Of a DNA stretch of 44,153 bases, positions 8,676-13,685 are shown in pieces. The stretch lies in the IMG/VR virus record IMGVR_UViG_2541047916_000003, one strand, 5' to 3'. Made by a program: the position numbers and the translations under genes. Within the stretch, counting starts at the first letter, position 1; each line of letters opens with the position of its first letter. This stretch comes from a virus. Its lineage: Duplodnaviria; Heunggongvirae; Uroviricota; Caudoviricetes. A model generated the notes under the pieces. It searched no databases and had not been told where the DNA came from. It was given only the letters and a program-made list of their open reading frames with translations.

Positions 8676-9257
8676 ATGAACAACTCATGGTGGCAGGAAC
8701 TAATGCATTTTTTCCTGCAAGGAATGACACTTAAACAGTTGATTCATATGCTAATCATCCTGATCATATTGATTATTGTTATGCCGGTAAGCGTAAAAGA
8801 ATGGATAAACCTGCATAGTCCAGAAATCCTTCCTCATTACTGGATGTATTACATCCTGTTGTTTTGCGTTAGCTATGTGCTTAACGGCGTTGTTAATTCC
8901 GCTTATCACGCTGTGACTGAAAGAATTGAGGTATTCGCTGCTCAGAAGCGCAAATCTAAAGAAGAAAAATATGTGCAAGATTTGTTTGATTCGTTAACTC
9001 TTGGAGAAAGAGCGTATTTGGCATTCGCTGTAGCCGCTAATAACCAGCTACAAACGGAAAAGGGCGCTCATGAATCAATTTCATTGCTCAAAAAAGGACT
9101 CCTCGTTCGAAGGCCTCCTGCTGTTGGATATCCTGATACCGACCGTTTCGTTATCCCTGAAAGCTATAGACATGAGTGCTACATTAGGTTTGCCGGGAAG
9201 GCAGACAGCCTTATGGATGAACTTATCGCTCAGGATAAGCATGGCAAAAACAAGTAA
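8676..9257 (+). CDS. sieB: SieB superinfection exclusion protein
   Basis: 193-aa membrane protein; translation matches lambda SieB as recalled; sole plus-strand gene in the pL operon region. Confidence 0.85.
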   Translation: MNNSWWQELMHFFLQGMTLKQLIHMLIILIILIIVMPVSVKEWINLHSPEILPHYWMYYILLFCVSYVLNGVVNSAYHAVTERIEVFAAQKRKSKEEKYVQDLFDSLTLGERAYLAFAVAANNQLQTEKGAHESISLLKKGLLVRRPPAVGYPDTDRFVIPESYRHECYIRFAGKADSLMDELIAQDKHGKNK

Positions 9258-9273
9258 TTAGCAAATGAATTTA

Positions 9274-9546
9274 TCATCTCGCCGTCAGTTGTTTTGATTT
9301 CCGGTAGCCTGCCGCGTAAAGAGCTACGTTCGGAAGACAAGTTGAACCTTCATATTTTCTGGTCAACGTTGTCAGAGTTATCACTTCTGCTCTCATTGCT
9401 GGTTTGAGCTTGCATTGCAAGACCACTCGTGAAGGGGTTGGCCTGTGTAGCTTGTCGGAGCTGATCGCCTCCTGACTTTGCAGATTTGCGCGACGAGCTC
9501 TACGGCGAGAAGCTGCGGTGCCTTTAAATTCTGTTTTTCTGGACAT
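9274..9546 (-). CDS. N: N-type transcription antiterminator (non-lambda; P22 gene-24-like C-terminus)
   Basis: 90-aa product from ATG at 9546 with GGGAGG ribosome-binding site; arginine-rich motif SRRRARRA near the N-terminus; C-terminal VALYAAGYRKSKQLTAR resembles P22 gp24 as recalled. Confidence 0.7.
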   Translation of the reverse strand: MSRKTEFKGTAASRRRARRANLQSQEAISSDKLHRPTPSRVVLQCKLKPAMRAEVITLTTLTRKYEGSTCLPNVALYAAGYRKSKQLTAR

Positions 9547-9662
9547 GGATTCCTCCCGAATAAACTTTGGCGATGCAATCTCGAAGCTCCTCCTGAGACG
9601 GTTGCTTCGGCATTGCATCCCACAGCTTATGTGGTTGGGTGATCTGGCTTTTCAGCCACGTA

Positions 9663-9690
9663 GTCGAGAGTCGACGTTGTTTAAAGAGCC
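9663..9690 (-). promoter_or_regulatory. nutL candidate (boxA-like GGCTCTTTAAACAACG plus short hairpin)
   Basis: Minus-strand GCTCTTT..AACAACG followed by hairpin GTCGA-CTC-TCGAC; the same boxA-spacer motif occurs after cro. Confidence 0.45.
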
Positions 9691-9730
9691 TGCCAGTCTG
9701 TTCCATTTGGCTTCCAGCGTCCTGCTGACG

Positions 9731-9770
9731 GTTAAATAGTACGATATGTACTTTACAAGATCAATACAAT
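9731..9770 (-). promoter_or_regulatory. pL promoter with OL operator candidate
   Basis: Minus-strand TTGATC-(18)-TATTTA with the operator-like 15-mer AAAGTACATATCGTACT immediately upstream of the -10; same motif found at pR. Confidence 0.4.
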
Positions 9771-9982
9771 TTGTTGTAAGTTGGCGTGGTTTTTTATAAC
9801 GCTTTGTATTTAATAGTGTTGTTTTTTAGCGTGGATGTATTGCCTCGGCGATGTAAGGAGAGATCAGAATTGCGTGGTTTAGTGGGTTGCATCTATTTAT
9901 TTTTCAATAAATATAATTGGTTATGTGTTTTTAGGTGGGCGAACGTGAGGCAAAGAAAACCCGGCGCTGAGGCCGGGTTGTA

Positions 9983-10735
9983 TTATGCTGCAAGTCTCTT
10001 AACCCAAGTCTCTCTTTTGGAGAATGGTAGAACTTGGCTTGATTCATGGAAGAGTAAGGAGAGTTGTTGCATTTGATCACCAATTGCTTCGCTGTCTATA
10101 ACAACAAATCTGTTGTTATACTCCTCACTTGAAGCTTTAAGATCAATTAGTTTCCCAAGCAATGAGTAAGCACTATTCCAGCTTCCTCCGTGTTTCACGC
10201 TTGATGTAAAAACGTATTTAGGTATGTCGGTTTTTATTGTTACAGGGACGGTAATTTGATGTCCACTCAAGCCATATACGTTTTCACGAAGAGAAAGTGC
10301 GTCTCTAAGCTCTGTGTGATATAGATAATCAATAACCATACTTTCAAACTTTTCAGCTTGAACTGGCTGATACCAGTCTAACGACAAAGTTGATGCGAGT
10401 ATACCAGCTCTAATTATGTTCGATGTAATCGCACCGACATCCTTTTCTGTTGCCCAAGCAATGATTTCTCCTCGAGCATTGAGTTCTGCGCCTTCTTTAA
10501 GCAGTAATTGTCGTATCTCATCAAGTCGTTTTTTGGTAAGCGAGATCCCTCTTGCCTCCATATTCATTAAGGCATCGCATCTGTCACTAACTAAATACCT
10601 ACCATTGACTTCACGGATAAAGGCACCGACATGCTCTCCATCATCACAGTAAGTGAATGGACTGATAATTCTCAAGGTCTTGCCTATTGGATGGCATTCG
10701 AAACCTAGTTGTGAGATCACTGTTGAGCACATCAT
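9983..10735 (-). CDS. uncharacterized protein (250 aa), distal gene of a two-gene cassette in the rexAB position
   Basis: ORF on the cI strand; start ATGATG overlaps the stop of the upstream 185-aa gene; AT-rich; no family recognised. Confidence 0.7.
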   Translation of the reverse strand: MMCSTVISQLGFECHPIGKTLRIISPFTYCDDGEHVGAFIREVNGRYLVSDRCDALMNMEARGISLTKKRLDEIRQLLLKEGAELNARGEIIAWATEKDVGAITSNIIRAGILASTLSLDWYQPVQAEKFESMVIDYLYHTELRDALSLRENVYGLSGHQITVPVTIKTDIPKYVFTSSVKHGGSWNSAYSLLGKLIDLKASSEEYNNRFVVIDSEAIGDQMQQLSLLFHESSQVLPFSKRETWVKRLAA

Positions 10736-11289
10736 ATTCCAAACCCCATTTGCCCCGACTCATCTTCAAGCGGTAAAGGTATTCTCCCAGAGTAAGTTAT
10801 GTTCAGATGTTTACAGAAGTAATTCCAATACCCTACCAGGTCATCTGGGTTTATGTCATCTTCGATTGGAAACGCTATTCTATCACTATAGTATCCAGCT
10901 TCTTCATAGTATACATGGTAGTGAGCACCGTAAATGATATCTTGGTACTTCGGATGATCGACCTTGTAACTATTCGTGTGTTTGTCAAAGTGATAGGTAT
11001 CTACCGCGAAAACCCTCTTGTTATGATAGAAAGCAATAATATTTATTTTAGGGTAAGAAATCGGGTCATCAGGTTCTGAATCCTGATCTGGTTTCCATTT
11101 CAGTTCAAACTTTAGCCCTTGTATAGGTATACAATCCTCATCCAAGGGGATGATATGGGCTTGTAGCCACATATCAGAGCGACTTGGTTTCTGTTTCCAT
11201 TTAACGCCAGAAAAGTTAACTATTTTTTTACAATAAAGTACTTTATCAACTTCTACTTGGCTTGGCTGATAATCATCTATTTTTGCCAA
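10732..11289 (-). CDS. uncharacterized acidic, aromatic-rich protein (185 aa), proximal gene of the rex-position cassette
   Basis: ORF begins about 40 nt downstream of the cI stop on the same strand; Tyr/Trp/His- and Asp/Glu-rich; no TM segment; no family recognised. Confidence 0.7.
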   Translation of the reverse strand: MAKIDDYQPSQVEVDKVLYCKKIVNFSGVKWKQKPSRSDMWLQAHIIPLDEDCIPIQGLKFELKWKPDQDSEPDDPISYPKINIIAFYHNKRVFAVDTYHFDKHTNSYKVDHPKYQDIIYGAHYHVYYEEAGYYSDRIAFPIEDDINPDDLVGYWNYFCKHLNITYSGRIPLPLEDESGQMGFGI

Positions 11290-11328
11290 TGTTTACCGCC
11301 CTGTAAATTGTAGATAAAAGTGGTTTCA

Positions 11329-11988
11329 TCACCCAAACGTCTCTTCAGGCCATTGGCTGGCGATAACTTTCCCCACAACGGAACAACTCTCATTGCATGG
11401 GATCATTGGGTATTGTGGGTTTAGTGGCTGTAGAAACACCTGACCGCTATCCCTGATCAGTTTCTTGAAGGTAAATTCATCACCACCAAGTCTGGCTATG
11501 CAGAAATCGCCGGGCTCAACAGCTTGCTCAGGGTCAACCAGAATTAACATCCCGTCAGGAAAGCTGGGTTTGGAACCTGTTGGTGCGGTCATTGAGTTAC
11601 CTTCAACCTCAAGCCAGAATGCAGAGTCACTGGCTTTTTTGGTTGTGCTTACCAATCTCTCCGCATCGCCTTTGGTAAAGGTTCTGAGTTCTGGAGAGAA
11701 CATCCCAGCCTGAACATGAGAAAAAACAGGGTACTCATATTGTTTTTTAACTGGGGCCGATGAGTATTCGCCAACAGGTGAAAATGTCCCGTCGTGGTTG
11801 AATGATATGTTATCAATACCAAGGTATTTAAACACCACACCAATATCACTAAGAGATGGATGACGAGATCCGCGCAACCAGTGTCCAATCCCACCCTGCG
11901 TCATACCTAGCTCTTCGGCTAACTTCTCTTGAGTTATGCCGAGCTCTTTCATTCTGGATCTAGCCAGTTCATACCATTTCATTTTCAT
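11329..11988 (-). CDS. cI: CI prophage repressor (heterologous HTH N-domain, lambda-type S24 autocleavage C-domain)
   Basis: C-terminal ~130 aa match the lambda cI C-domain as recalled (..[29 protein letters not shown]..); N-terminal HTH differs from lambda; ATG at 11988 preceded by AAGGA. Confidence 0.85.
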
Positions 11989-11995
11989 GTCCTTA

Positions 11996-12069
11996 TTATT
12001 ACGCTCTGTACTGGAACCATCCATGCACAATGTGTATTTTTACTTGTATTCGCAAAGTACATATTGTAT
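11996..12069. promoter_or_regulatory. OR operator region with divergent pRM and pR
   Basis: pR candidate TTGTAT-(17)-TATTTT with operator-like AAAGTACATATTGTATT in the spacer; a second related copy AGTACAGAGCGTAAT lies next to the cI start. Confidence 0.45.
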
Positions 12070-12099
12070 TTTTTTATTCGTGTTTACTATGGAGGGCAT

Positions 12100-12315
12100 A
12101 TGAGCAACCTACGAAAATATCGAGAGTCACTGAATATCTCTCAAACAACACTTGCTAAGGCAGTTGGATGCACACAGGGAGCTATCGGACATTGGGAATC
12201 TGGTCGTCGCTTCCCAGACCTTAAAACATGCCGTGCTCTTGTTGCGTGCCTAAACAAGTTAGGCGCAAAAGTCAGTCTTGATGACGTGTTCCCGCCGGAA
12301 CACAAAGCCGCTTAA
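12100..12315 (+). CDS. cro: Cro-type repressor (XRE-family HTH)
   Basis: 71-aa product from ATG at 12100 with GGAGGG ribosome-binding site; recognition helix TQGAIGHW parallels TQGGIGHW in cI. Confidence 0.8.
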   Translation: MSNLRKYRESLNISQTTLAKAVGCTQGAIGHWESGRRFPDLKTCRALVACLNKLGAKVSLDDVFPPEHKAA

Positions 12316-12325
12316 TAAGCGGATC

Positions 12326-12353
12326 CGCTCTTTGTAACAACGGACATTCGTCC
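12326..12353 (+). promoter_or_regulatory. nutR candidate (boxA-like CGCTCTTTGTAACAACG plus short hairpin)
   Basis: Directly after the cro stop; hairpin GGAC-ATTC-GTCC follows the conserved AACAACG; a second GAAA-loop hairpin lies at about 12358-12371. Confidence 0.45.
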
Positions 12354-12456
12354 TACGTCGCTGAAAAGCGAGTTCCAAGATATCTGACCAACTAAGGCCA
12401 TATGCGTTTCCACGCATACCTTTCAACTAACTATTCACTATTGGAAATCTTAAGAA

Positions 12457-12753
12457 ATGGAAAGAACAAGTTACAGCAAACTATCACAGCGTGACGTTGA
12501 TCGCGCAGAAACAGATTTACTTATCAATCTGTCAGCTATTACCCAGCGCGGTCTGGCAAAGATGATTGGCTGTCATGAATCGAAGATAAGCAGAACGGAC
12601 TGGAGATTTATTGCTTCGGTCTTGTGTGCTTTCGGAATGGCATCAGACATCAGTCCGATTAGCAGGGCTTTTAAGTATGCGCTTGATGGACTCACCAATA
12701 AAAAACGCCCGGCGGCAACCGAGCGTTCTGAACAAATCCAGATGGAATTCTGA
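12457..12753 (+). CDS. cII: CII transcriptional activator (heterologous N-terminus, lambda-type C-terminus)
   Basis: 98-aa ORF ending ..TNKKRPAATERSEQIQMEF as lambda CII; N-terminal DNA-binding part differs from lambda. Confidence 0.85.
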   Translation: MERTSYSKLSQRDVDRAETDLLINLSAITQRGLAKMIGCHESKISRTDWRFIASVLCAFGMASDISPISRAFKYALDGLTNKKRPAATERSEQIQMEF

Positions 12754-12772
12754 GGTCATTACTGGATCAATC
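12697..12772 (-). ncRNA. oop: oop antisense RNA
   Basis: Minus-strand sequence across the cII 3' end closely matches lambda oop as recalled and ends in the hairpin GCCGCCGGGCG plus TTTTTTATT. Confidence 0.6.
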
Positions 12773-12785
12773 CACAGGAGTCATT

Positions 12786-13685
12786 ATGACAAATACAGCA
12801 AAAATACTCAACTTCTGCAGAGGTAACTTTGCCAAACAGGAGCGTAATGTGGCAGATCTCGATGATGGTTACGCCAGACTATCAAATATGCTGCTTGAGG
12901 CTTATTCAGGCGCAGATCTGACCAAGCGACAGTTTAAAGTGCTGCTTGCCATTCTGCGTAAAACCTATGGATGGAATAAACCAATGGACAGAATCACCGA
13001 TTCTCAACTTAGCGAGATTACAAAGTTACCCGTCAAACGGTGCAATGAAGCCAAGTTAGAACTCGTCAGAATGAATATTATCAAGCAGCAAGGCGGCATG
13101 TTTGGACCAAATAAAAACATCTCAGAATGGTGTATCCCTCAAAACGAGGGAAAATCCCCTAAAACGAGGGATAAAACATCCCTCAAATTGGGGGATTGCT
13201 ATCCCTCAAAACAGGGGGACACAAAAGACACTATTACAAAAGAAAAAAGAAAAGATTATTCGTCAGAGAATTCTGGCGAATCCTCTGACCAGCCAGAAAA
13301 CGACCTTTCTGTGGTGAAACCGGATGCTGCAATTCAGAGCGGCAGCAAGTGGGGGACAGCAGAAGACCTGACCGCCGCAGAATGGATGTTTGACATGGTG
13401 AAGACCATCGCGCCATCAGCCAGAAAACCGAATTTTGCAGGGTGGGCTAACGATATCCGCCTGATGCGTGAACGTGACGGACGTAACCATCGCGACATGT
13501 GTGTACTGTTCCGCTGGGCATGCCAGGACAACTTCTGGTCCGGTAACGTGCTGAGCCCGGCCAAACTCCGCGACAAGTGGACCCAGCTCGAAATCAACCG
13601 TAACAAGCAACAGGCAGGTGTGACAGCCTGCAAACCAAAACTCGACCTGACAAACACTGACTGGATTTACGGGGTGGATTTATGA
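12786..13685 (+). CDS. O: replication initiator O
   Basis: 299-aa translation matches lambda O as recalled; ori iterons lie within the gene. Confidence 0.95.
   Translation: MTNTAKILNFCRGNFAKQERNVADLDDGYARLSNMLLEAYSGADLTKRQFKVLLAILRKTYGWNKPMDRITDSQLSEITKLPVKRCNEAKLELVRMNIIKQQGGMFGPNKNISEWCIPQNEGKSPKTRDKTSLKLGDCYPSKQGDTKDTITKEKRKDYSSENSGESSDQPENDLSVVKPDAAIQSGSKWGTAEDLTAAEWMFDMVKTIAPSARKPNFAGWANDIRLMRERDGRNHRDMCVLFRWACQDNFWSGNVLSPAKLRDKWTQLEINRNKQQAGVTACKPKLDLTNTDWIYGVDL
13134..13219 (+). repeat. ori-lambda-type iterons (four ~18-19 bp repeats) followed by an AT-rich segment
   Basis: ATCCCTCAAAACGAGGGA-like unit repeated four times, then an A-rich tract to about 13260. Confidence 0.8.

What the first reader, a model, noticed from the sequence alone, without database searches (positions are those of the whole stretch)
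9663..9690. Conserved boxA-spacer motif at both nut positions, with short atypical hairpins in the boxB position
After the cro stop the sequence reads CGCTCTTTGTAACAACG followed by hairpin GGAC-ATTC-GTCC. Upstream of N on the minus strand it reads GGCTCTTTAAACAACG followed by hairpin GTCGA-CTC-TCGAC. The shared GCTCTTT..AACAACG element in both leader positions fits boxA plus spacer. The hairpins have 3-4 nt loops rather than the 5-nt GAAAA-type loop of lambda boxB, although a GAAA-loop hairpin (TCGCT-GAAA-AGCGA) lies 5 nt after the first nutR hairpin, at about 12358-12371. Which hairpin is the true boxB for this P22-like N is unresolved.
Basis: seen in the sequence. Interest (0 to 1): 0.4.

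Follow-up and report, generated by a model that had tools for sequence, protein, structure and literature searches.

The report
Ordinary nut sites; boxB is GAAA hairpin

Summary
The sequence is as described. The window matches Escherichia phage PhiR57_1, and N is 99% identical to VT2-Sakai N.

Both early leaders carry the same five-part module:
- boxA
- ACAAC
- a short hairpin (H1)
- UACG
- a 5-bp hairpin with a GAAA loop (H2)

nutL spans 9690 to 9645 on the minus strand; nutR spans 12326 to 12371.

H1 is the spacer hairpin. The nutR copy is base-for-base the published H-19B "nutR spacer". Its stem covaries but its loop is free, and it does not track the N type.

H2 is boxB, on four grounds:
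- It is homologous to the H-19B boxB (same stem, loop GACAA).
- It is identical to the annotated "NutR boxB" of phage epsilon34.
- Its stem covaries.
- Its loop co-varies without exception with the N arginine-rich motif: RRR(A/E)RRA..LQ goes with GAAA, and RRRERLKAKALANG goes with GACAA.

The N motif is not P22-like; its core resembles lambda's but lacks Trp18.

This is a known kind of site, already annotated in relatives. The mildly interesting residue is a widespread natural boxB with a true GNRA tetraloop. I found no report that it has been tested.

The parts
9682..9690 (-). nutL boxA, GGCUCUUUA
   Evidence: 8 of 9 identical to rrn boxA UGCUCUUUA (PMC2724277). It lies about 40 nt downstream of the pL start inferred from the VT2-Sakai annotation.
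9676..9680 (-). nutL conserved single-stranded spacer segment ACAAC, 5' of H1
   Evidence: ACAAY is present in every distinct site compared; columns A1 C2 A3 A4 are invariant in the 30 representative sites aligned.
   Evidence: Folds at -3.5 kcal/mol. The stem is always paired, with compensatory changes, while the loop sequence varies freely among relatives.
9659..9662 (-). nutL conserved linker UACG between H1 and boxB
   Evidence: Invariant in all sites compared.
   Evidence: locate it. It differs from nutR boxB by a C-G to G-C compensatory change. The loop type tracks the N arginine-rich motif.
12326..12334 (+). nutR boxA, CGCUCUUUG
   Evidence: Seen. It starts 11 nt after the cro stop and is 8 of 9 identical to the consensus CGCUCUUUA.
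12337..12341 (+). nutR conserved spacer segment ACAAC
12342..12353 (+). nutR spacer hairpin H1, GGAC-AUUC-GUCC
   Evidence: Identical to the H-19B nutR spacer (reverse complement of oligo RS663, PMC3526286 supplement). Folds at -3.8 kcal/mol, z -3.3. Compensatory variants GGCC/GGCC and GGGC/GCCC occur in relatives.
12354..12357 (+). nutR linker UACG
12358..12371 (+). nutR boxB (H2), UCGCU-GAAA-AGCGA, loop 12363-12366
   Evidence: Identical to the feature annotated 'putative NutR - boxB' in phage epsilon34, EU570103. It has the same stem as the H-19B boxB UCGCU-GACAA-AGCGA. Folds at -5.7 kcal/mol, z -4.6.
9274..9546 (-). N gene (90 aa); arginine-rich motif FKGTAASRRRARRANLQSQ at the N terminus
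   Evidence: Pfam N_peptide PF25694, E = 1.5e-32. 98.9% identical to VT2-Sakai N and 41.7% to H-19B N. Annotated as N in PV340572.1.
9736..9764 (-). pL, TTGATC - 17 nt - TACTAT (inferred)
   Evidence: Corresponds to the 'putative major leftward promoter' annotated in VT2-Sakai AP000422. It falls below the threshold of the simple consensus scan.

Best explanation
These are the nutL and nutR sites of an H-19B/VT2-Sakai-type lambdoid phage. The proposed mechanism is as follows.

1. Each nascent early transcript (leftward from pL, rightward past cro) carries, in order: boxA; a spacer made of ACAAC, a short hairpin H1 and UACG; and boxB (H2), a 5-bp stem closed by U-A with a GAAA tetraloop.
2. The N-terminal arginine-rich motif of N (..SRRRARRANLQSQ..) binds the boxB loop and its closing pair.
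3. NusA binds the spacer, and NusB/S10 presumably bind the near-consensus boxA.
4. The complex then rides with RNA polymerase and suppresses downstream terminators.
5. H1 is not a recognition element. It is a structural stem-loop that holds the conserved ACAAC and UACG segments, and so boxA and boxB, at a workable distance. I recall this as the 'reducer' of Neely & Friedman 2000.

What is shown here: the anatomy, the homology, the covariation of both stems, and the strict co-variation of the H2 loop with the N motif.

What is inferred: that N of this phage binds the GAAA hairpin, and that boxA is used.
For: **Gene context.**
- N is a Pfam N_peptide, and cI, cro, cII and sieB sit in the canonical order.

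**Homology to characterised or annotated sites.**
- The H-19B nutR can be rebuilt from published oligos as CGCTATTTTCAC / CACAATGGACATTCGTCCTACG ('spacer') / TACGTCGCTGACAAAGCGAGTCCC ('boxB'). It aligns base for base with window 12326-12375 apart from the boxB loop and a few substitutions, mostly in boxA.
- PMC3526286 reports two hairpins in the H-19B nutR. N with NusA and NusG protected the spacer and the boxB loop G, but not boxA.
- The VT2-Sakai record annotates its nutL at the stretch corresponding to window 9650-9690, where its sequence is identical to the window's.
- The 933W record annotates its nutR as boxA through boxB, and epsilon34 annotates TCGCTGAAAAGCGA as boxB.

**Structure.**
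- Among 29 distinct sites, 100% of cells are paired, against 80.6% in shuffles and 21-50% in slid controls.
- 5 of 9 pairs show double changes. There are 34 double-change cells against 10.4 in shuffles, reached by 0 of 500 shuffles.
- H2 pair 1 uses U-A, G-C, C-G and A-U, and pair 2 uses G-C, C-G and A-U.

**Specificity.**
- In about 130 loci, every N with RRR(A/E)(R/H)RA..LQ has GAAA at each nutL and nutR site detected. The one exception is a nutL with GCAA, which is also a GNRA loop.
- Every N with RRRERLKAKALANG has GACAA at each detected site. The Oslo-type nutL departs (loop GUCAA) and is noted separately. Neither loop type ever occurs with the other motif.
- In the reverse test from the RNA motif, roughly 35-40 distinct N termini were found downstream, all of the first class.
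- Phages epsilon34 and Oslo are near-isogenic around both nut sites and share the same H1. They differ only in boxB and in the N motif.
- H1 loops vary freely (CUC, ACUC, ACAC, AUUC, GUCC, AAUA, GUGA and others) and do not track the N type.
Against: - No binding or antitermination experiment exists for this N with this GAAA hairpin. The assignment rests on homology and co-variation.
- nutL is physically adjacent to N, so part of the co-variation is linkage. Many of the loci are also close relatives.
- RNAfold's minimum-energy structure for the nutL leader (-14.1 kcal/mol) pairs boxA with the 3' half of boxB, instead of forming the two-hairpin structure (-12.0).
- The 'reducer' interpretation of H1, and the boxA, NusB and S10 independence of H-19B, come from my memory of Neely & Friedman 2000. 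I could verify only the title.
Confidence: 0.9

Rival explanations
1. The first hairpin (GUCGA-CUC-UCGAC at nutL, GGAC-AUUC-GUCC at nutR) is the true boxB bound by N, and the GAAA hairpin is incidental or serves another role.
For: It directly follows boxA and the spacer-like AACAAC at both sites, and its stem is conserved with compensatory changes.
Against: - Its loop differs between nutL and nutR of the same phage (CUC versus AUUC) and varies freely among relatives.
- The same H1 (GGACAUUCGUCC) serves phages with two different N motifs.
- It is labelled spacer in the H-19B experimental work.
- The G protected only when N with NusA and NusG was present in H-19B lies in the boxB loop.
Confidence: 0.03
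2. The recognition element is bipartite. H1 and H2 together, for example stacked coaxially or bridged by the UACG linker, are needed for N and/or NusA binding, so neither hairpin alone is 'boxB'.
For: - The H1 stem, the UACG linker and the exact 4-nt spacing are invariant in all sites compared.
- N with NusA and NusG protected both the spacer and boxB in H-19B.
Against: - P22-type N proteins share the C-terminal module but use nut sites without any spacer hairpin.
- From memory, deleting the H-19B dyad has little effect on activity.
- H1 length and loop are unconstrained (12 to 16 nt).
Confidence: 0.06
3. The palindromes act at the DNA level, as protein-binding sites or recombination hot spots between phage modules, rather than as RNA structures.
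For: Perfect palindromes such as GTCGA...TCGAC are equally palindromic in DNA. Mosaic joints in lambdoid phages often lie near nut sites.
Against: - G-U wobble pairs occur in H1 (GGGC/GUCC; GAUUC/GAGUC) and in one H2 (U-G in Oslo nutR). These are tolerated only in RNA of the transcribed sense.
- Both sites have the same orientation relative to transcription, not to the chromosome.
Confidence: 0.01

Closest known systems
nutL and nutR of Shiga-toxin phages H-19B and 933W (Neely & Friedman 1998, 2000; used in vitro in PMC3526286)
   Same: - Same architecture: boxA, spacer containing a stem-loop, UACG, boxB.
- nutR H1 is identical (12 of 12), the boxB stem is identical (UCGCU/AGCGA), and the downstream rut/tR1-like sequence is alike.
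- The N proteins share the C-terminal end and belong to the same Pfam family.
   Different: - The boxB loop is GAAA (4 nt) instead of GACAA (5 nt).
- The N motif is ..SRRRARRANLQS.. instead of ..SRRRERLKAKALANG.., and N is 90 aa rather than 127 aa (41.7% identity).
- boxA here is near consensus at both sites. In H-19B/933W the nutR boxA is degenerate (CGCUAUUUU) and nutL has none recognisable.
nut sites of VT2-Sakai (AP000422) and epsilon34 (EU570103), as annotated in GenBank
   Same: - The VT2-Sakai nutL is identical in sequence, and its N is 98.9% identical.
- The epsilon34 'putative NutR - boxB', TCGCTGAAAAGCGA, is identical to window 12358-12371.
- The epsilon34 paper already suggested a novel boxB specificity for its N terminus (PMC2629481).
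   Different: - Those are annotations without experiments.
- The record this window matches (PV340572.1) annotates no nut site.
- epsilon34 lacks a recognisable boxA.
Phage lambda N with boxB (GAAAA/GAAGA pentaloop folding as GNRA with the fourth base extruded; Legault 1998, as summarised in PMC12027372)
   Same: - 5-bp stem closed by U-A, and a loop starting G-A-A.
- The core of the N motif is alike: lambda AQTRRRERRAEKQAQ versus window AASRRRARRANLQSQ, 9 of 15 identical.
   Different: - The loop is a true tetraloop, so there is no extruded base.
- There is no Trp at the position of lambda Trp18 (Glu here).
- Lambda has no spacer hairpin.
- Beyond the arginine-rich motif, lambda N shows no evident similarity to this N.
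Phage P22 gene 24 protein with boxB (GACAA pentaloop)
   Same: The C-terminal 24 residues of N are 79% identical, and boxA is near consensus.
   Different: The P22 motif GNAKTRRHERRRKLAIERD, the GACAA loop, and the absence of a spacer hairpin. The covariance model finds no match in the P22 locus.

Membership tests
Lambdoid N-utilisation (nut) site | One site in the pL leader upstream of N and one just downstream of cro, both in the sense of early transcription | tested here: met
   nutL runs 9690 to 9645 on the minus strand, with boxA 144 nt upstream of the N start codon. nutR starts 11 nt after the cro stop. The model finds exactly one site of each kind per related locus.
Lambdoid N-utilisation (nut) site | boxA matching CGCUCUU(U)A | tested here: met
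   GGCUCUUUA at nutL and CGCUCUUUG at nutR, each 8 of 9 (consensus from PMC2724277).
Lambdoid N-utilisation (nut) site | boxB: a short hairpin with a purine-rich GNRA-type loop, conserved as a structure | tested here: met
   UGGCU-GAAA-AGCCA and UCGCU-GAAA-AGCGA. All distinct related sites are fully paired, with compensatory changes at two stem positions. The loop has 4 nt rather than the 5 of lambda, P22 and H-19B.
Lambdoid N-utilisation (nut) site | A cognate N protein with an N-terminal arginine-rich motif encoded next to nutL | tested here: met
   Pfam N_peptide, E = 1.5e-32; motif SRRRARRANLQ.
Lambdoid N-utilisation (nut) site | N-dependent readthrough of downstream terminators | not testable with these tools
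   Needs reporter or in vitro transcription assays. It has been shown for the H-19B homologue (PMC3526286).
H-19B-type nut site (spacer stem-loop) | [quoted passage not shown] | tested here: met
   H1 is present at both sites. 3 of the 4 modelled pairs show changes on both sides, and 100% of cells are paired. The nutR H1 is identical to that of H-19B.
H-19B-type nut site (spacer stem-loop) | boxB loop GACAA with the N motif RRRERLKAKALANG | tested here: not met
   The loop is GAAA and the motif is RRRARRANLQSQ. This places the window in a sister specificity class, not the H-19B class itself.
H-19B-type nut site (spacer stem-loop) | Independence from boxA, NusB and S10 | not testable with these tools
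   This property is recalled from Neely & Friedman 2000; only the title could be verified. The near-consensus boxA here hints that the window phage may differ.
   Only the last 24 residues of N resemble P22 gp24. The motif, the loop and the spacer all differ.

The most novel reading that the evidence does not exclude
The RRR(A/E)RRA..LQ motif paired with a true GNRA tetraloop (GAAA, once GCAA) may be a separate, orthogonal N-boxB specificity class. It would work without an extruded loop base and without the stacking tryptophan of lambda N. The contact that the extruded base is thought to offer to NusA in lambda would then be dispensable or replaced, perhaps by the spacer module ACAAC-hairpin-UACG. 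The class is widespread: roughly 35-40 distinct N termini were recovered in IMG/VR. I found no report of any test of it.
Probability: 0.5. Interest if true: 0.35.

Novelty: already known. Interest (0 to 1): 0.18.

Why it matters
**For annotation.** The result fixes the nut sites of this phage, which are unannotated in PV340572.1. It also corrects a tempting misreading: the hairpin next to boxA is not boxB.

**For biology.** Little is new. The two-hairpin nut site is characterised in H-19B, and the GAAA hairpin is already annotated as boxB in epsilon34.

**What remains of value.** Nature offers a clean specificity table:
- Loop GAAA goes with the motif RRRxRRAxLQ.
- Loop GACAA goes with the motif RRRERLKAKALANG.
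- The two classes sit on otherwise near-identical nut and N backbones (epsilon34 versus Oslo).

This could be used to obtain orthogonal peptide-RNA tethering pairs. It could also test whether an extruded loop base is needed to assemble the N-NusA complex.

Tried and rejected
- **Rfam search.** All families against 9000-13000 at E up to 10 gave only chance-level hits; none reached its family's gathering score and none corresponds to a nut site.
- **PDB sequence search.** The window N found nothing at E up to 10.
- **MAFFT alignment of all sites (A3).** It misplaced the 1-nt loop gap and the H1 length differences. I replaced it with explicit parsing and a covariance-model alignment. My first parse of H2 used a greedy 5-nt loop and was wrong; one search corrects it.
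- **Genome-contig scan.** It returned only 4 loci. One of them, Citrobacter L011, gave the most informative compensatory changes.
- **Alternative pairing of boxA with the boxB 3' half.** I considered it as a regulatory switch. boxA's first four bases equal positions 2-5 of the boxB 5' arm at both window sites, and the nutL minimum-energy fold uses this pairing. I rejected it as a conserved feature because close relatives break it: boxA UGCU or AGCU occurs with boxB GGCU, and epsilon34 has no boxA.
- **Simple promoter scan.** It did not find pL or pR. I placed pL by homology to the VT2-Sakai annotation instead.
- **Literature.** Neely & Friedman 2000 is not held, so the 'reducer' statements rest on memory. 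No held paper discusses a natural GAAA-tetraloop boxB together with NusA.

Full report
**Context.** The window matches Escherichia phage PhiR57_1 (PV340572.1): the 601 bases compared are 100% identical at the same coordinates, and the gene coordinates coincide. The region has the canonical lambdoid early layout:
- sieB, 8676-9257 (+)
- N, 9274-9546 (-); Pfam N_peptide, E = 1.5e-32
- a two-gene cassette
- cI, 11329-12030 (-)
- cro, 12100-12315 (+)
- cII, 12457-12753 (+)
- O and P

N is 98.9% identical to VT2-Sakai N. It is only 41.7% identical to H-19B/933W N, and it resembles P22 gp24 only over its last 24 residues.

**Observation.** Read in the direction of transcription, the two leaders are:
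- nutL (9690 to 9644, minus strand): GGCUCUUUA-A-ACAAC-[GUCGA CUC UCGAC]-UACG-[UGGCU GAAA AGCCA]-G
- nutR (12326 to 12372): CGCUCUUUG-UA-ACAAC-[GGAC AUUC GUCC]-UACG-[UCGCU GAAA AGCGA]-G

The two copies differ by a C-G to G-C exchange in the stem. The shared motifs occur only at these two places in 44 kb, with nothing expected by chance. A covariance model built from 8 nutR sites, with no nutL among them, recovers the window nutL at 35.1 bits (E about 5e-15). Nothing else in the window scores better than E = 0.66.

**What the first hairpin (H1) is.**
- The supplement of PMC3526286 lists oligos antisense to 'nutR boxA', 'nutR spacer' and 'nutR boxB' of phage H-19B. Their reverse complements give CGCTATTTTCAC, CACAATGGACATTCGTCCTACG and TACGTCGCTGACAAAGCGAGTCCC.
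- The H1 of the window nutR (GGACATTCGTCC, followed by TACG) is therefore the H-19B spacer, base for base.
- That paper states that the H-19B nutR contains two hairpins. N with NusA and NusG protected the spacer and the boxB loop G from RNase H and T1, but not boxA. Rho also loads on the spacer.
- The GenBank record of 933W annotates nutR as the whole stretch from boxA through H1 to boxB.
- VT2-Sakai annotates nutL at the stretch corresponding to window 9650-9690, where its sequence is identical to the window's.
- From memory, Neely & Friedman (2000) called this spacer stem-loop a 'reducer': its pairing matters, but its sequence and even its presence do not. I could verify only that paper's title.

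**What the second hairpin (H2) is.**
- It is homologous to the H-19B boxB, with the same stem UCGCU/AGCGA.
- It is identical to the feature annotated 'putative NutR - boxB' in phage epsilon34.
- The strongest argument is natural co-variation. I collected about 290 loci from GenBank phages, IMG/VR and genome contigs; about 130 of them had a parsed N.
- Every N whose N terminus reads ..RRR(A/E)(R/H)RA..LQ.. has GAAA at each nutL and nutR site detected. The single exception is GCAA at the nutL of Shigella phage POCJ13, which is also a GNRA loop.
- Every N with ..RRRERLKAKALANG.. (H-19B, 933W, mEp234, Oslo) has GACAA at each detected site. The Oslo-type nutL departs (loop GUCAA) and is noted separately. 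Neither loop type ever occurs with the other motif.
- nutR is separated from N by the immunity region, which carries at least three different cro ends among the window-type phages. This is therefore not only linkage.
- The reverse test started from the RNA pattern CTACGNNGCTGAAAAGC. It returned roughly 35-40 distinct N termini downstream, all of the first class. Several of them carry unrelated C-terminal modules.
- Phages epsilon34 and Oslo are almost identical around both nut sites, including H1, and in the body of N. They differ only in boxB and in the N motif. This amounts to a natural swap experiment.
- H1, by contrast, is the same (GGACAUUCGUCC) in phages of both classes. It differs between nutL and nutR of a single phage.

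**Structure conservation.**
- On the model-based alignment (29 distinct sites), 100% of cells form standard pairs. Shuffles give 80.6% and slid controls give 21-50%.
- 5 of 9 pairs change on both sides. There are 34 double-change cells against 10.4 in shuffles, reached by 0 of 500 shuffles.
- Explicit parsing gives the same picture. H2 pair 1 uses U-A, G-C, C-G and A-U. Pair 2 uses G-C, C-G and A-U. The three inner pairs G-C, C-G and U-A are fixed.
- H1 uses at least three pair types at each inner position. Its loops are unconstrained and range from 3 to 6 nt.
- The single-stranded ACAAY before H1 and UACG after it are invariant. G-U pairs in H1 argue for selection on the RNA of this strand.

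**Mechanism.**
1. Shown for the H-19B homologue, inferred here: N binds boxB through its arginine-rich motif, NusA binds the spacer, and the complex makes RNA polymerase resistant to Rho-dependent and intrinsic terminators.
2. H1 most likely acts as a structural spacer that positions the conserved linear segments.
3. boxA is near consensus here (8 of 9 at both sites), whereas it is degenerate or absent in H-19B, 933W and epsilon34. NusB/S10 use is therefore plausible for this phage but untested.

**Comparison with lambda and P22.**
- The core of the motif resembles lambda's: AQTRRRERRAEKQAQW versus AASRRRARRANLQSQE, 9 of the 15 aligned residues identical. Glu replaces Trp18.
- The lambda boxB loop is a GNRNA pentaloop that folds as a GNRA tetraloop with one base extruded (Legault 1998, as summarised in PMC12027372). 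Here the loop is a genuine tetraloop.
- P22 and an Escherichia albertii relative have a different motif, a GACAA loop and no spacer hairpin. The model finds nothing in them.

**Novelty.** The kind of site, the two-hairpin architecture and the GAAA boxB annotation are all already in the public record. The epsilon34 genome paper even predicted a novel boxB specificity for that N terminus (PMC2629481). What I did not find in the held literature is any experiment on the GAAA class.

**Limits.**
- There is no experiment on this N.
- Many loci are close relatives.
- The covariance-model alignment leans towards the model's structure.
- RNAfold's minimum-energy fold of the nutL leader (-14.1 kcal/mol) pairs boxA with the 3' half of boxB, rather than forming the two hairpins (-12.0). 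That pairing is not conserved in relatives.

Noticed in passing
window 9552-9638 (-): The N leader between boxB and the N ribosome-binding site folds into one long, very stable hairpin (-39.3 kcal/mol, z -3.6; 0 of 200 shuffles fold as well). By position it resembles the RNase III-processed hairpin of the lambda N leader (that comparison is from memory).
   Followed up: partly
window 9983-11289 (-): Two overlapping genes (250 and 185 aa) sit between cI and the pRM-operon terminator, where lambda has rexAB. They match the PADLOC candidate defence system PDC-M24 (B: E = 4.7e-10; A: E = 4.8e-4) and Pfam DUF1828 and DUF6978. PV340572.1 annotates both as hypothetical.
   Followed up: partly
window 9636-9692 (-): In nutL the first four bases of boxA (GGCU) equal positions 2-5 of the boxB 5' arm, and the same holds at nutR (CGCU). 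boxA can therefore pair with the 3' half of boxB, and this is the RNAfold minimum-energy structure for nutL (-14.1 versus -12.0 kcal/mol). The relation is broken in close relatives, so it is probably not selected.
   Followed up: yes
window 12308-12322 (+): A 6-bp hairpin, CCGCUU-AAU-AAGCGG, spans the cro stop codon immediately upstream of the nutR boxA. It is specific to this cro allele; other cro ends precede the same nutR in relatives.
   Followed up: partly
L007 4358-4372 (+) (Salmonella phage Oslo; also phage 103203_sal5 and 6 IMG/VR loci): At the nutL boxB position these phages have GCUCC-GUCAA-CGAGC. The closing pair is a C-C mismatch and the loop is GUCAA instead of GACAA, although their nutR has UCGCU-GACAA-GGCGA. 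This is an odd or decayed nutL boxB.
   Followed up: no
L004 4366-4403 (+) (Shigella phage POCJ13): Its nutL boxB loop is GCAA while its nutR has GAAA. Both are GNRA tetraloops, which fits recognition of the fold rather than of the exact loop sequence.
   Followed up: partly
L014 4788-5078 (+) (Citrobacter meridianamericanus prophage): An N with the shared ALYAAGHRK C terminus but an unrelated basic N terminus (MNRNQARRLAAFNAKKAAEKH). Upstream lies a different hairpin, CCUCAG-AAU-CUGAGG. This may be another specificity class.
   Followed up: no
window 12702-12729 (-) and 9958-9979 (-): Two strong intrinsic-terminator-like hairpins. One is antisense at the 3' end of cII, the position of the lambda oop RNA terminator. 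The other follows the cassette downstream of cI, where VT2-Sakai annotates the terminator of the pRM transcript.
   Followed up: no
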